Shown piece by piece: positions 1 to 61,190 of a stretch of DNA of 64,000 nucleotides; the stretch's first letter is position 1; each line of letters starts with the position of its first letter. The notes under the pieces are model-generated. The model searched no databases. It had not been told where the DNA came from and worked only from the letters and a program-made list of their open reading frames with translations. Origin of the DNA: Eledone cirrhosa (lineage: Eukaryota); the NCBI GenBank assembly GCA_964016885.1, contig CAXHJY010000913.1, positions 1 through 64,000 of the forward strand. Direction: 5' to 3'. A program made the position numbers and the translations under genes.

Positions 1-259
1 CTAACTGTTGTGTTACCACTTCTACCAAACTCGTCCCATGGACTGAGTGCTCTACCACTACGGATATTACCTTCCAGTGTTCCACCACTACGGTAACCCT
101 TCTACCTTTGTTTTGTTTTCATTTTATTTATTTTTTCGTTTCTCTCAATTTTCACTTTTCTCCTATTTCTCACTCACTTCCTACCTCGAGATTTCCCATC
201 TGCATTGTTGTGGCTTTCTAAACTACATATTATATATATATATATATTTCGAACGATTC

Positions 260-19063: not shown

Positions 19064-19257
19064 CACCACACCACCACCACCACCACACCTACTACTACTA
19101 CTACAACTACTACTACTACTACTACGGATTAGTTCAAGGCAACATATTCAGATGAGCAGCAAACGGTTGATTACATTTATCCTACAGATACTTTATTATC
19201 CAGCGGAATATTTCCTCTTCACTACAATGAAAAGGATAGGAACCGATCGTGAAATCG

Positions 19258-19878
19258 GAGCAAGGAAACTATGTTTCTATTGATCTTTCCATTGCTGATA
19301 CTGTCTTTAAATCAAGGAAACTATTATGTTTCTATTGGTCTTTCCATTGCTGATACTGTCTGTCTTCAGATCAGACCAAGGAAACTATGTTTCTATTGGT
19401 CTCTCCATTGCTGATACTGTCTGTCTTCAGATCAGACCAAGGAAACTATGTTTCTATTGGTCTCTCCATTGCTGATACTGTCTGTCTTCAGATCAGACCA
19501 AGGAAACTATGTTTCTATTGGTCTCTCCATTGCTGATACTGTCTGTCTTCAGATCAGACCAAGGAAACTATGTTTCTATTGGACTCTCCATTGCTGATAC
19601 TGTCTGTCTTCAGATCAGACCAAGGAAACTATGTTTCTATTGGTCTCTCCATTGCTGATACTGTCTGTCTTCAGATCAGACCAAGGAAACTATGTTTCTA
19701 TTGGTCTCTCCATTGCTGATACTGTCTGTCTTCAGATCAGACCAAGGAAACTATGTTTCTATTGGACTCTCCATTGCTGATACTGTCTGTCTTCAGATCA
19801 GACCAAGGAAACTATGTTTCTATTGGACTCTCCATTGCTGATTCTGTCTCTCGTAATATCAGACCAAGGAAACTATGT
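19258..19878. repeat. 61-bp minisatellite, about 10 units
   Basis: Unit CCAAGGAAACTATGTTTCTATTGGTCTCTCCATTGCTGATACTGTCTGTCTTCAGATCAGA. Inner units are nearly identical and edge units are degenerate. Confidence 0.95.
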
Positions 19879-21194: not shown

Positions 21195-21466
21195 GCGGAA
21201 GAATAAAATAAGTGATATATAAACATCTAAAGAAGGGCATAACTCGTTAAGTTGTTAACAGACTTTCACAACTGACTGATAGAGCATTTTCCGTTTTTTG
21301 TTTTTTTTTTCAATTCCTCGCATCCTATGGGTGACCTTTATCCAATCCTCTGCGAAACGCACGTAACAGGTCGATACACAATAAAAACCTAAATACATCT
21401 AAACGAAAGTTCATTGTTTTTCTTAGTGCATGAAACAGTTCTAGTCCTGTAGAAGCCATTTCTATA

Positions 21467-23094: not shown

Positions 23095-23160
23095 TATTTT
23101 ATTATACGTATTTCAGAGGTACTGAGCTGTTTCATCAGTACGTCCTCATCAGATAAAATA
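23095..23160 (-). ncRNA. Type I hammerhead ribozyme, intact core
   Basis: Minus strand reads UAUUUUAU-CUGAUGA-GGACGUACUGA(UGAAACAGC)UCAGUACCUCU-GAAA-UACGUA-UA-AUAAAAUA. Stem I is 8 bp and stem III is the palindrome AUACGUAU. Confidence 0.8.
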
Positions 23161-34311: not shown

Positions 34312-36002
34312 GTGTGTGTGTGTATTGAAATCCCGATGTAAATCGGGAGGCGACTGCTTTTAAAAAAAGGTACTCAATACGCTAGTAGAATTTTGGCATA
34401 TTCAGTCTATTAGAGAAATTACTTCGATGTGAAATCTTACGAATGAAACAGATCTAGTCCTGTAGATGTCATTTATATAATAAAATGAACACACACACAA
34501 AGGCAGGGGTATGAGATAGACATAAACACAGATACGTATCGAAAATGGTCGATGTACATGGGTATAAGTATGACTATGTAATGTGTATGTAGCATACGGT
34601 GGCGAGCGAAAATTTGAAAAATTGAATTAGAAGCTTTTCGCTGTATTATAGTATTACAGAAAATAGTCTAATAACAGGTCACATAAGCCCCCACAACGGA
34701 AAAAAAAGGGGCATCAGTTTTCACAGAAGGTAATCACTTTAACTTGTATAAATGAAATAGGAAAGAATTCAACAATTCGGCCGGTGGTCGTTTGTAAAGA
34801 AGAAGAAAAAATATTTCCGGTGGTGCAGAGTTTCAAGTTGAAAACTGGATATAAATAACATGACTGGCGTAAAAATTTAGAAGTGGATAATATTTTTTGA
34901 TTCGAAAAAACGTTTTTAAATTGAGGTGATAATGTGTGATCTCCATGTTGGATGTCTCAAACACGCAGCTATTCAGAAATCAGATTACACATTGAGAGAA
35001 GTAAAAGTAGTCTTCTGTTCTTAGTATTATTCTATGTTGCACTTTTAAACGGATTTTTGTCCACTTCTGTTTCACTGAGAAGTCAGCAGCGAGGCCCGTA
35101 ATGTAGTAATAAATTCACACAAATCTATTTAAATGTACAGCAGTTAGTGGTTCTTTTCGACACTAATTATATTTTGATGTATATGGTGTAATATAACAAG
35201 TAATGATGCTCTCTATAACTCTGTGTGTGTGTGTGTGTGTGTATGCCTAGGACGGTTGGAGGGCCACTGATGAAGGACTTACTTTTTCATATGTAACCCA
35301 TTTGCAACGCCGCAGCTCCATTATTATCATATTTACATATATATATATATACAGGGGTGGTGGAACTGGGGGGGGGGGGGGGCATGGACCCCGCAATAAT
35401 TATATTTTTCTCCCCAAACTACCAAAACATACATCTATTTGTATATGCGCTACAATTTATGTACGTGTTATGTAGCGACAGATGGAAGAGATAGATAGAG
35501 AGGGGGAGGGTTTGGTGGTAATTGATATAGAGAGGATGGTTGGGAGAGTGTGTTGTATATTAGATATAGAGAGTGGGGGAGATTAATGTTTATTGATATA
35601 GAGAGAAGAATTTGAAGAAGATATAGAGATGGGGAGAGTTTGGTATTAATTGATATATAGAGGGGGGATTGGGAGAGATAAGTGTTGATATTTATAAAGA
35701 GTGAGAGAATGTATTAATCTTAGATATAAAGAGTGTGATAAGAGAGGCTATGTCGTGGTTGATATAGAGAGGGGTAGAATTTGGTTTTACTAGATACAGA
35801 GAGGGGGATTAAAAGAGAGTTTTGTCTGATAGACATAGTGCGCGGAGGGGGAGTTTGGTAGCACTGTTGGGTCCCAAATGATAGGAGAGTGGCAATAATG
35901 GGAGGGGAGGGGCTTGGGAAATCAATAACTGTATAATGTACGTTCGTAAATATGGGATTAATTGTCATATATGTTTTTTTAATGTAAAATAACATTATTA
36001 TT

Positions 36003-46965: not shown

Positions 46966-47023
<58 letters not shown>

Positions 47024-47187
47024 GGGTTGACAGCTGCGATAAAAGAGTACTCAATACTGGGGCAGAGCTTTGGTATTCATTATTATCAAGGATGAATAGT
47101 CTTGTTACTCGGGACTTTCGCCTGAAATGTCTGGTGACCCTGTGATAAATAGGTGAAACTCCAGATACCCTTAATGAAAATGAATGA

Positions 47188-47426: not shown

Positions 47427-47485
<59 letters not shown>

Positions 47486-47493
47486 TTATCCCG

Positions 47494-47544
47494 GGCTTCC
47501 TGATGATTTCTCCCGAATGAAACAGTTCTAGTCCTGTAGAAGCC
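47494..47544 (+). ncRNA. Type I hammerhead ribozyme, intact core, monomer-type stem III
   Basis: Reads GGCUUC-CUGAUGA-UUUCUCCCGAAU-GAAACAG(UUCUAGUC)CUGUA-GAAGCC, on a 70-bp island between two (TA)n tracts. Confidence 0.85.
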
Positions 47545-47589
<45 letters not shown>

Positions 47590-50258: not shown

Positions 50259-51397
50259 TACATATATATATACATACATATATATATACATACATATATA
50301 TGTACATACATACATATGTACATACACATATATATACATACATATATATATACATACATATATATATACATACATACATACACATATACATACATACACA
50401 TATACATACATACATACATACAGACATACACATACATACATATATATAATATATATATACATATAATACATACATACATACATATATATATACATATAAT
50501 ACATACATACATACATATATATAATATATATATACATATAATACATACATATATATAATATATATATACATATAATACATACATACATATAATATATATA
50601 TACATATAATACATACATATATATAATATACATATACATATAATACATACATATACATACATATACATATATATATACATACATATACATATATATATAC
50701 ATACACACACACACACACATACATATACATACATACACACATATACATACACATATATATACATACATATTATACACATGTACATACATATACACACATA
50801 CATATATAGACATATATATATGTGTGTACATACATATATATATATATACACACACACACACACTATATATATATATATATATATACACCCATGTAAAAGT
50901 CATCACAATTTTGGCCAATGCATCTAAATTGTTCTATGTAAAAGTTGACCGTCGTTCTTGGTCAACGAAAGTATTATTCTGACATAGAAATGTATTTTCT
51001 TGTACTGTTACGTTCTGAAACATATACATATATATATACATATATATATATACATACATATATATATACATATATACATACACATATATATATATATATA
51101 CATATATACATACACATATATATATATATATACATATATACATACACACATATATATATACATATATACATACACATATATATATATACATATATATATA
51201 CATATACATACATATATATATAGACATACATATATATATATATACATATACATACATACATATATGTATATATATATATATATATGTATATATAGTATAT
51301 ATACATGTGGTTACATCCGACTCAACCCGTATATATAGTATATATATATATATATAGTATATATATATGTGGTTACCTCAGATTCAACCCGGAATAA

Positions 51398-51455
<58 letters not shown>

Positions 51456-54331: not shown

Positions 54332-54530
54332 GGAACGGGTAGGACCCCGACGGCTGAGCTCAAGCCGTTTCGACGGCTAATTCTGGACTAGCCGTCGAAT
54401 TAGCCGTCGAAACGGCTTGAGCTCAGCCGTCAGGGTCCTACTCGTTCCTATTACCCAATCTACTACCCTAAGTATTGAGTACTTTGGTGCGTTATGGTCC
54501 ACCTGGTTCCTTACGACATTTCCTTCGTTA
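54327..54530 (+). mobile_element. (TA)n-embedded short element with 5' fold-back and the 3' half of an HHR
   Basis: Arms 54327-54383 and 54397-54453. Contains the stem II strand UAGCCGUC followed by GAAACGGCU(UGAGCUC)AGCCGUC. Homologues at 4670-4786, 57501-57746 and 60990-61118. Confidence 0.75.
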
Positions 54531-55079: not shown

Positions 55080-55348
55080 ATGTCAGGGCATTCTTCTTGG
55101 AGAAGGCAACTTAGAAAACTGGGTTAACTCCGATATAAAACATGCGGCTCAGTAGTTACCAATGATGTTGATCTTTTCTTCTTTTCGGGTTATAGCTACT
55201 GTCGCTCAGAGAGTGGGATTGGCTCAGTGCACAGTCTTTCTTCACTTTAAAAATATCTTCACGCACAGGCATTGCACGATAGAATTAATAATTGTTAATA
55301 ATGGTATAACGTGCAATGGCCATATTCGATAACGAGGGGGCAGCCATC

Positions 55349-55350
<2 letters not shown>
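55080..55350 (+). mobile_element. Diverged shorter relative of the bipartite RTE derivative
   Basis: Shares GGAGAAGG, CCAATGATGTTGA, AGAGAGTGGGA, GCACAGGCATTGC and the 3' end GGCAGCCATCAT. Confidence 0.6.
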
Positions 55351-55389
<39 letters not shown>

Positions 55390-55440
55390 TTCCTACAGAT
55401 AAATTATTATACACTAACATAATATTCACACATACATTTA

Positions 55441-55506
<66 letters not shown>

Positions 55507-55550
55507 TATACATATATATACATATATATATATACATATATATATACATA

Positions 55551-56030
55551 TATTTCTCTGGGACACCGTAGAGTCTTACAATCTTCCACAATGACTCTCG
55601 ATGAACACTGTCGAAAGCTTTCCTGAAGTCAATGTAGTTGACAACAAGTGACTTGTGGAACTCCCGACACTGTTCAATGATATTTCGGAGAGTGAAGATC
55701 TGCTCTGAACAAGACCTTCCACTGCGGAAGCCAGCCTGTTCGTCTCGAAGATGACGATCTACTTCAGCCGGTTCAGGATGACTGTGCAGAATATCTTCCC
55801 TGGCACTGATAGCAAAGTGATCCCTCTCCAGTTGTTGCAGTCGCTGAGACAGCCCTTCTTCAGTAGTGGTACAATCACTCCATTTCGCCAGTCCTACGGC
55901 ACTCCTCTTCTTGCCAAATCACATTGCATAAATGGGTGAGCTGCTCCTCTATTACATCTATTACATCTTTGCTCCTCTATTACATCTTTGCTCTTGATTG
56001 GCAAACTGCTTCCACTTCATCCTCCAGTTA
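55551..56030 (-). mobile_element. RTE-type LINE reverse transcriptase fragment, inverted
   Basis: Minus strand translates as [67 protein letters not shown], with stops and frameshifts. Confidence 0.92.
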
Positions 56031-56083
56031 GCTCTCTATAACGTGCAATGGCCATACTCGATAACGAGGGGGCAGCCATCATG

Positions 56084-56151
<68 letters not shown>

Positions 56152-56194
56152 TTCCTACAGATAAATGATTATACACTAACATAATATTCACTCA

Positions 56195-56774
56195 TATTGA
56201 CGATGGGGATGCTGAGGTGGATGTGCGCACAAGGCTGGGAAAAGCAGCGGCGGTCTTCCAGCGACTCCGTCCGGTATGGTCCAGGTGTTCCATCGGCAAC
56301 GCCGTCAAACTCCGTGTTTACATGTCCATTGTAGTACCAACAGCGATATATGCCTGTGAGACATGGAAGAGTACGGAAAGTGTATGTAACAAGCTTGATG
56401 TATTCCACCGTCGTTGCATTCGGACCATATTGAAAATTTCATGGAGAGACCAAGTTAGCAACGAGGAAGTGATGAGGAGGTCAGGATTGGAGAAGTTAAG
56501 GGACATTGTCCGGAAAAGGGGGACGGCCGTTCGCGGGCCACATCCTTCGTTTGCCGGCAGATCGAGCTGCTCATATTGCCATGGATTGGGTACCAGAAGG
56601 TGGCAGGGGGGAACGGGGAAGACTACGAAAAACATGGCGGAGCACATTCAGGGAGGACTTGCAGGAGATGGGAATTACCTGGAGAGGTGCTAGTAGGGCC
56701 GCCAGTGACATGATCAAGTGGAGGAAGCTCGTCGCCCAATGTTCCACAAGGGACTGGAGGAACTAAGACTAAGA
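56195..56774 (+). mobile_element. RTE-type LINE 3' end
   Basis: DVRTRLGKAAAVF..KLRVYMSIVVPTAIYACETW..LDVFHRRCIRTILKISWRD..FAGHILRLP..RGRLRKTWR, with an (ACTAAG)2 tail. Confidence 0.92.
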
Positions 56775-57500: not shown

Positions 57501-57744
57501 TAGGAACGAGTAGGACCCCGACGGCTGAGCTCAAGCCGTTTTGACGGCTAATTCTGGACTAAAAAAAAAAAAATTCTGGACTAAAAAATAAATTTTTTTC
57601 TTTTTTTAGTCCAGAATTAGCCGTCGAAACGGCTTGAGCTCAGCCGTCGGGGTCCTACTCGTTCCTATTACCCACTCTACTACCCTAAGTATTGAGTACT
57701 TTGGTGCGTTATGGTCCACCTGGTTCCTTACCACATTTCCTTCG

Positions 57745-57746
<2 letters not shown>
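57501..57746 (+). mobile_element. Second copy of the 54327 family, with fold-back and A/T-rich centre
   Basis: Arms about 57501-57567 and 57601-57669, with (TA)n on both sides. Confidence 0.75.
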
Positions 57747-60989: not shown

Positions 60990-61118
60990 AACAAAGGAAT
61001 CGTGGTAAGGAACCAGATGGACCATAACGCACCAGAGTACTCAATACTTAGGGTAGTAGAGTGGGAAGTAGGAAAAAGTGTGACCCCAACGGCAGAGCTA
61101 TAGCCGTTTCGACGGCTA
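60990..61118 (-). mobile_element. Copy of the 54327 family without inversion
   Basis: Reverse complement of the same tail and of the GAAACGGCT motif, flanked by (TA)n. Confidence 0.7.
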
Positions 61119-61190
61119 TATATATGTATGTATGTATATATATATATGTATGTATGTATATGTATATATATATATGTATGTATATGTATG

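What the first reader, a model, noticed from the sequence alone, without database searches (positions are those of the whole stretch)
47481..47551. A 70-bp island that is essentially only a hammerhead, between two (TA)n tracts
It has a 6-bp stem I, a stable stem III and a GUA triplet (predicted cut after 47538). Partial homologues at about 21429-21465 and 34440-34475 end at the same point just after stem I, which defines an element terminus next to the ribozyme.
Basis: partly seen in the sequence, partly recalled or inferred. Interest (0 to 1): 0.7.

Follow-up and report, generated by a model that had tools for sequence, protein, structure and literature searches.

The report
Jumping-gene leader that is a hammerhead
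This 68-base island is a scrap of a Penelope-type jumping gene whose pieces occur about ten thousand times in this genome; it is likely a copy of the first 60 or so letters of the element's messenger RNA, which carry a predicted self-cutting (hammerhead) motif that would, if active, cut off the RNA's own cap.

Summary
The hammerhead motif, its coordinates and the flanking (TA)n tracts are real, but the island is not a free-standing ribozyme. It is a two-armed insertion of a Hydra-clade Penelope-like element (PLE): a 12-base inverted stub of the element's tail joined at GGG to a 58-base hammerhead arm. A family 20-mer has 9,988 exact hits, and a sister subfamily has intact 713-aa RT/GIY-YIG parents. 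The end after stem I is one of two termini. Two-armed copies carry one short and one long end (105 of 112 classifiable; no long-long), and the arms share sequence variants, as if both target ends primed on one RNA. This layout is known, and the scan has noted it before on other DNA. Not found in the papers or notes searched: arms start at the first base of stem I, 30 bases behind a TATA box, often with an extra non-native G (62 of 95; 43 of 95 in A-starting subfamilies). That points to a capped transcript beginning with the ribozyme, 180 bases before the start codon. Copies do not start preferentially at the cleavage site (29 versus 27 control). Monomer cleavage is untested and doubtful.

The parts
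47430..47481 (.). (AT)26 tract, left side of the target microsatellite
47482..47483 (.). two bases that match neither the tract nor the usual tail end (substitutions or untemplated)
47484..47495 (-). inverted stub of the element's long end (tail); its last three bases are the GGG shared with the other arm
   Evidence: L001 partner arm = unit 125-136; same junction exact at 4 places
47493..47493 (+). extra G in front of stem I; parents have C here; inferred copy of the mRNA cap (in this copy it also lies in the microhomology, so it cannot be assigned here alone)
47494..47499 (+). stem I 5' strand; its first base is the inferred transcription start (+1)
47500..47506 (+). hammerhead core CUGAUGA
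47507..47518 (+). stem II: U.U, 3 bp, 4-nt loop that varies freely between subfamilies
47519..47538 (+). GAAA, stem III (4 bp, 8-nt loop with CUAG palindrome), GUA; predicted cut after 47538 (+45)
47539..47544 (+). stem I 3' strand
47545..47554 (+). short end of the family; merges with the TA tract between 47549 and 47554
47550..47587 (.). (TA)19 tract, right side of the target microsatellite
21430..21463 (+). 5'-truncated short arm of the same family, without CUGAUGA
34440..34484 (+). short arm of a diverged relative, core decayed
34324..34410 (-). inverted, diverged tail belonging to the 34440 arm (14-base exact match at 34367-34380; limits read by eye)
51306..51404 (+). two tail (long-end) fragments of the same family, 51306-51329 and 51368-51404

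Best explanation
The island is a fragment of a Hydra-clade Penelope-like retroelement inserted in a (TA)n tract, likely made by reverse transcription of the 5' leader of the element's mRNA, which is inferred to be capped and to begin at the first base of a predicted hammerhead ribozyme. Shown: in parents the order is TATA box, 22 bases, stem I, a short end near +60, a long end near +135, and the ATG of an RT/GIY-YIG ORF near +180. Inferred steps: the element's enzyme cuts (TA)n on both strands; one end primes at the short site and the other at the long site of the same uncleaved RNA; a cDNA that reaches the 5' end copies the cap as an extra C; its 3' CCC pairs with a G run in the other cDNA; the two cDNAs then template each other's second strand. 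Here the short cDNA paired with the GGG ten bases inside the long end, so 12 bases of the other arm remain. Both priming sites lie upstream of the ORF, so transcripts from the element's own promoter would yield only leader copies, and ORF-bearing copies would need read-through into a downstream terminal repeat. This would account for thousands of dispersed hammerhead scraps. The island has no TATA box and is probably inert. In the parent the ribozyme is under structural selection; its most likely role is a slow, dimer- or protein-assisted cut at +45 that would remove the cap from the mRNA, and in a read-through RNA would separate the ORF from the downstream priming sites.
For: Parent: EN upstream and RT downstream of family hammerheads; 4 of 4 checked loci hold a 713-aa ORF, and L353 is direct repeat / ORF / direct repeat ending at the short end in (TA)18; the window's own subfamily runs into the same ORF start in L408, L410 and L413. 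5' end: TATA 29-32 bases before stem I in 5 of 5 parents with differing spacers; letter before stem I in TATA-bearing copies C 87, T 8, G 1 of 96 genuine rows (100 listed of 294; 4 dropped as inverted-arm matches); in arms directly after (TA)3, extra G 62, none 31, C 2 of 95 places (100 rows listed of 103); in subfamilies whose stem I starts with A, G 43, C 22, neither 30 of 95 places (100 rows listed of 305). An untemplated 5' G is read as a cap mark for L1 (PMC6425141, 2 passages). Two ends: short+long 49, 41 and 15, short+short 1, 3 and 3, long+long 0 in three samples of 73, 70 and 29 loci. One template: loop II identical in both arms in 40 of 73 pairs (shuffles: mean 12.4, max 22 of 5,000); shared minority letters 85 (shuffles: mean 24.5, max 41). 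A tail variant occurs with the three main junction types and both polarities, so junctions form anew. Non-overlapping arms, as in classical twin priming: L031 (unit 1-56 and 62-136). Selection on the fold: stem I haplotypes GGCTTC/GAAGCC 49, AGCTTC/GAAGCT 26, AGATTC/GAATCT 18 of 201 motifs. Biochemical precedent: a PLE enzyme cuts both strands of AT-rich DNA, starts at two internal RNA sites and uses uncleaved RNA (PMC11167929).
Against: No RNA data: no transcript, cap or cleavage was observed. 31 of 95 and 52 of 95 arm starts lack the extra G, and in A-starting subfamilies 22 of 95 show the native C, so the start is not single-valued. An RT can add C without a cap (recalled). The first sample was selected for CGGG and overstated the fixed start; only 75 of some 3,759 subfamily hits have it. 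18, 19 and 8 loci had no detected partner arm and 5, 7 and 3 had an intermediate end; these were left out of the short/long count. The least biased sample is only the first 100 hits on one contig. No intact ORF was seen for the window's own subfamily. In the anole PLE the priming sites lie inside the ORF and are not homologous to the target (PMC11167929), so details differ. The role proposed for the ribozyme is pure inference: arm starts are not enriched at the cleavage site (29 against 27).
Confidence: 0.78

Rival explanations
1. Same PLE origin, but the window copy began as a full fold-back insertion and later lost one arm by deletion between two CCCGGG-like repeats.
For: Near-perfect hairpin centres exist (L029, L030, L154/L155); the tail has CCCGGG; palindromes are unstable (established knowledge).
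Against: Junctions of this and the other types all use G runs next to an intact stem I start, and occur across sequence lineages. One deletion end would have to sit at the hairpin apex. The window arm carries the majority haplotype at every part, so it is little decayed.
Confidence: 0.12
2. The fixed 5' start is a processed RNA end or an RT stop, and the extra G is terminal-transferase addition, not a cap.
For: A third to a half of starts lack the G; no RNA evidence.
Against: TATA at -29 to -32 with drifting spacers, and a pyrimidine-purine step at the start; no AG acceptor before the start; the added letter is G whether stem I begins with G or A.
Confidence: 0.12
3. Hairpins form by self-priming on an antisense template (proposed in PMC3846280) or are copied as ready-made hairpin masters.
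For: The two arms of an insertion share variants, which masters would also give.
Against: In 34 or more of the CGGG-set pairs the arm that reaches the 5' end is the short one and its partner the long one, so the partner cannot be a copy of it. Junction type and polarity assort freely on a tail variant.
Confidence: 0.08
4. One reading: a stand-alone minimal ribozyme element that works as a monomer and ends just after stem I.
For: Intact core; stems I and III form in the minimum-energy fold of the isolated 51-mer; 10-12 short solo arms per larger sample.
Against: Parent with ORF found; second terminus; exact island junction at only 4 places. The strict hammerhead fold has probability 0.03 alone and 0.005 in the island, where the inverted stub competes for the 3' strand of stem I; a loop III dimer gives -12.8 against -1.4 kcal/mol (secondary-structure model, no Mg). 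Metazoan PLE hammerheads are reported as weak and dimeric (PMC4209133) or protein-assisted (PMC11167929).
Confidence: 0.05
5. A non-LTR retrozyme: a monomer copied from a ribozyme-cut circular RNA.
For: Type I hammerhead in a non-coding repeat; retrozymes are linked to PLE terminal repeats (10.64898/2026.07.22.740005, part 1 of 5 read).
Against: No regular head-to-tail arrays of the unit were seen in the loci printed (one search was cut in the middle); ends do not map to the cleavage site; the unit is the leader of a coding element.
Confidence: 0.03

Closest known systems
Hydra clade of C-terminal EN+ Penelope-like elements (Craig et al. 2021, PMC8557442; section 11 and passages read)
   Same: Single ORF with C-terminal GIY-YIG; DKT; RW-basic motif; CxCX5C linker; CxxC and CxH in EN; canonical hammerhead; (TA)n targets; inverted 5'-truncated copy with a tail at one end only.
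   Different: RWR rather than RWK; unit about 4.8 kb in L353 because of a microsatellite-rich 3' region (described members under 3 kb); tail about 70 bases rather than 30-40. That paper attributes the tail to endonuclease resolution; here it tracks two priming sites. A start site at the ribozyme is not described in the text read.
Poseidon_Ac in vitro system (Frangieh et al. 2024, PMC11167929; parts 1-2 of 4 read)
   Same: Two internal RT starts that define the tail; AT-rich targets cut on both strands; hammerhead upstream of the starts; uncleaved RNA is the template.
   Different: There the ORF begins inside the ribozyme and the starts lie 111-118 bases into the ORF with no target homology. 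Here ribozyme and both starts lie in a 180-base untranslated leader next to AT-rich stretches.
PLE hammerheads of metazoans (Cervera and De la Pena 2014, PMC4209133; parts 1-2 of 4 read)
   Same: Type I motif in terminal repeats; most copies dispersed singly or as close opposite-strand pairs; palindromic loop 3.
   Different: Longer stem III (4 bp), shorter stem II (3 bp), no G10.1-C11.1 pair. That paper only supposed dispersed motifs to be truncated PLEs; here they map to the transcript's 5' leader.
Twin priming and the cap-derived 5' G of LINE-1 (twin priming recalled; cap G from 2 passages of PMC6425141)
   Same: Both target ends prime on one RNA; junction by microhomology; untemplated 5' G.
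   Different: Priming sites are fixed and internal, and the arms usually overlap, duplicating the ribozyme.

Membership tests
Type I hammerhead ribozyme | CUGANGA and GAAA core with NUH triplet | tested here: met
   N7 is T in 191 and position 17 is A in 198 of 201 motifs
Type I hammerhead ribozyme | three helices, stem I open, supported by covariation | tested here: met
   two compensatory pairs in stem I across subfamilies; loop II variable between fixed stem strands. Stems II and III barely vary, so they show no covariation.
Type I hammerhead ribozyme | G10.1-C11.1 pair closing stem II | tested here: not met
   U.U at 47507/47518; same in the common family haplotypes
Type I hammerhead ribozyme | match to an Rfam hammerhead model | tested here: not met
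Type I hammerhead ribozyme | self-cleavage after NUH | not testable with these tools
   folding only
EN+ Penelope-like element | single ORF with RT and C-terminal GIY-YIG between terminal direct repeats | tested here: met
   713-aa ORF with YRDD and YIG, repeats 9-1168 and 4802-5965 in L353. Pfam support is weak: GIY-YIG E 2e-4, 22.0 bits against a 22.6 cut-off, on L319; E 0.13 on the whole ORF and no RT family hit.
EN+ Penelope-like element | inverted 5'-truncated copy, tail at one end only | tested here: met
Hydra clade | DKT in place of DKG; CxCX5C linker; CxxC and CxH in EN | tested here: met
   read from the ORF against section 11
Hydra clade | RWK motif | tested here: inconclusive
   RWR at that place
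Hydra clade | insertion in (TA)n and canonical hammerhead | tested here: met
Hydra clade | length under 3 kb (described as general) | tested here: not met
   repeat period about 4.8 kb in L353; about 1 kb from EN to ribozyme in L302 and L311
Hydra clade | placement in an RT tree with reference elements; absence of the CCHH motif | not tested
   no reference sequences were fetched
Non-LTR retrozyme | tandem non-coding units, ends at the cleavage site | tested here: not met

The most novel reading that the evidence does not exclude
In this PLE family the hammerhead is the first 51 bases of the capped mRNA. Cleavage at +45 is a self-decapping switch on the element's own translation, and the cap, copied as an extra C, supplies the microhomology that joins two cDNAs primed from both ends of the cut on one RNA. 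The thousands of dispersed PLE hammerheads in animal genomes would then be obligatory by-products of priming upstream of the ORF.
Probability: 0.35. Interest if true: 0.65.

Novelty: new member of a known kind. Interest (0 to 1): 0.42.

Why it matters
The island itself is an ordinary PLE scrap. The family around it bears on two questions that the papers read call open: what PLE hammerheads do, and how inverted repeats with a one-sided tail form. The genomic marks give a start site, two priming sites and a joining rule to single-base precision, and intact 713-aa ORFs make them testable in the in vitro system already published for another PLE.

Tried and rejected
Rfam: no hammerhead hit; only TA-driven microRNA matches. 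The apparent extension of L066 beyond the long end was another abundant repeat, not the parent. GIY-YIG frames in L013, L049, L059 and L128 belong to other PLE families or arms. 'CGGG is the fixed 5' end' was my first reading; it was a selection effect of the pattern, and the C comes from the partner arm or flank. Snap-back of one cDNA on itself was rejected because the 5'-complete arm is often the shorter one. A 3' splice site at the start was rejected because no AG precedes it. I first took the ORF for Neptune-like from memory; the motifs fit Hydra. The first count of native-type starts covered too few letter combinations and was replaced. An extended stem I with upstream bases was considered by eye only and is not established. 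Sequencing runs: no RNA holder listed; no reads were laid. The protein atlas did not answer. Lunse et al. 2017 is not held and was seen only as cited in PMC6765202 (passages). PMC6431247 (passages) and PMC2377424 (passages: the Drosophila Penelope promoter is internal and TATA-less, unlike this one) gave no start-at-ribozyme statement.

Full report
Observation. Between (AT)26 at 47430-47481 and (TA)19 at 47550-47587 lie 68 bases. From 47494 to 47544 they form a type I hammerhead motif: a 6-bp stem I, CUGAUGA, a 3-bp stem II under a U.U opposition, GAAA, a 4-bp stem III with an 8-base loop, and GUA with the predicted cut after 47538. A loose descriptor gave 4 hits in the window, and Rfam had no hammerhead match, so the motif alone proves little. 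The homologues at 21430 and 34440 are real but lack the CUGAUGA half.

The family. The genome is 3.0 Gb and animal-like; earlier notes call it a cephalopod, which I did not test. A 20-mer from stem III and stem I has 9,988 exact hits (control 0) and a 16-mer from the 5' half has 3,759 (control 7). Copies are arms of a unit of about 135 bases with two 3' ends: a short one in an AT-rich stretch 5-20 bases after stem I, and a long one about 70 bases further. Most insertions are head-to-head pairs in (TA)n. In three samples (73 loci picked by a 15-mer, 70 from the first 100 hits of the 20-mer on contig C1, 29 from another subfamily), pairs with two classifiable ends were short+long 49, 41 and 15, short+short 1, 3 and 3, long+long 0 (binomial P 4e-14, 7e-10 and 3e-3 against independent choice). 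Left out were 18, 19 and 8 loci without a detected partner and 5, 7 and 3 with an intermediate end; one locus is in two samples. The window copy is such a pair: 47484-47495 is the inverted long end, joined through a shared GGG to a short arm. This exact junction stands at 4 places.

The parent. A few arms extend 5' of stem I. Following them led to GIY-YIG upstream and RT downstream. A search with the ORF's first 79 residues scored 150 of 8,631 candidates, 18 of them in 758-codon open frames. Four of 4 fetched hold a 713-aa ORF, and L353 is a complete repeat-ORF-repeat unit that stops at the short end in (TA)18. These intact copies belong to a sister subfamily. The window's own subfamily runs into the same ORF start in L408, L410 and L413, but those frames break early. 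DKT, a CxCX5C linker, CxxC and CxH in the endonuclease, and TA targets fit the Hydra clade (against PMC8557442 section 11). Pfam support is weak and no tree was built.

The 5' end. In 5 of 5 parents examined a TATA box lies 29-32 bases before stem I although the spacers differ, and the ATG lies about 180 bases after it. In TATA-bearing copies the letter before stem I is C in 87, T in 8 and G in 1 of 96 genuine rows (100 listed of 294; 4 were inverted-arm matches). Arms that begin straight after (TA)3 instead show an extra G in 62, nothing in 31 and C in 2 of 95 places (100 rows of 103 listed). In subfamilies whose stem I begins with A the figures are G 43, C 22 and neither 30 of 95 places (100 rows of 305). 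I counted these rows by hand from the outputs. An untemplated 5' G is taken as the mark of a capped template for L1 (PMC6425141, two passages). I infer that the mRNA starts at the first base of stem I. In two-armed junctions from the less biased samples the letter before stem I was G in 16 of 29 and C in 3, all 3 in arms with native upstream sequence.

One RNA, two primers. The arms of one insertion share loop II in 40 of 73 pairs that have it in both arms (of 127; shuffles: mean 12.4, maximum 22), and differ at 3 or more letters in 2 (shuffle mean 24.7). They still differ at about 8% of sites, so they have not been homogenised recently. A tail variant occurs with the three main junction types and both polarities, which argues against ready-made hairpin masters. 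The 5'-complete arm is often the short one, which excludes fold-back of one cDNA on itself. L031 has abutting arms, as in classical twin priming (the L1 model is recalled). The model that fits is priming of both target ends at two fixed sites of one uncleaved RNA, with joining at G runs. It agrees with the in vitro behaviour of the anole PLE (PMC11167929, parts 1-2 of 4). PMC8557442 (passages) describes the one-sided tail but ascribes it to endonuclease resolution, and PMC3846280 (passages) proposes self-priming on antisense RNA.

The ribozyme. Of 201 motifs, the three commonest stem I haplotypes differ by two compensatory pairs, loop II varies freely, and the CUAG in loop III is largely kept, so the fold was under selection in active lineages. 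Activity is another matter. The strict hammerhead fold has computed probability 0.03 in the isolated 51-mer, 0.005 in the island and nil in a full fold-back copy, and a loop III dimer is much more stable than the monomer hairpin (-12.8 against -1.4 kcal/mol; no tertiary contacts or Mg in the model). Metazoan PLE hammerheads are reported as weak, dimeric (PMC4209133, parts 1-2 of 4) or protein-assisted. Arms starting at the cleavage site (29) are no commoner than at a control TA site (27), so cut RNA is not a favoured template. A cut at +45 would remove the cap; that role is inferred only.

Novelty. PLE hammerheads, inverted repeats and one-sided tails are in print. Earlier notes of this scan report the one-of-each end rule and twin priming in this and other genomes; they are unchecked notes, and my counts were made before I read them. 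One note reported arms from different parents in another genome; here the test went the other way. Paper searches for a start site or cap mark at a PLE hammerhead, or twin priming in PLEs, and a search of the scan's notes found nothing on it. The library lacks most subscription papers, and supplements were not read. Verdict: an ordinary remnant of a new Hydra-clade family, with one useful and testable addition, the capped start at the ribozyme. Interest 0.42.

Noticed in passing
L398, L399, L400, L402, L404, L406, L414, L415 (about 1540-1560 in element orientation): Of 16 copies that continue past the long end, 8 stop at nearly the same point about 10-15 bases before the ATG and are followed directly by an arm starting at stem I. 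This looks like a fixed template-jump site that would build the partial tandems typical of PLEs.
   Followed up: partly
L323, L326, L335, L336, L342 leaders: Each of the two ends is followed within about 10 bases by a T run and a small hairpin; predicted for the long end in 5 of 5 and for the short end in 4 of 5. Fits earlier notes on twin hairpins.
   Followed up: partly
window 23095-23160 (-): A complete hammerhead motif of another repeat family, with 8-bp stem I and a minimal palindromic stem III.
   Followed up: no
window about 54380-54530 (+), 57600-57745 (+), 60990-61120 (-): Three copies of another TA-flanked family: a half hammerhead with a long stem III ending in GUC, and the same tail motif as this family.
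   Followed up: no
window about 47020-47150 (-) and 1-85 (+): Tail-like ends of two further families with the same or a similar motif; the one at 1-85 matches the 3' end of the PLE in L013.
   Followed up: no
L261, L263, L268, L283; L351, L353: The region between ORF and promoter contains a long mixed TA/TG microsatellite that is shared between copies, so it travels with the element.
   Followed up: partly
window 55298-56690: Broken frames resembling a non-LTR retrotransposon RT on both strands (family judged from memory).
   Followed up: no
window 19254-19878: 61-bp tandem array, 9 copies at 98% identity.
   Followed up: no
L085-L086: Four near-identical two-armed copies 2.3-3 kb apart, carried in a local duplication, not separate insertions.
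   Followed up: partly
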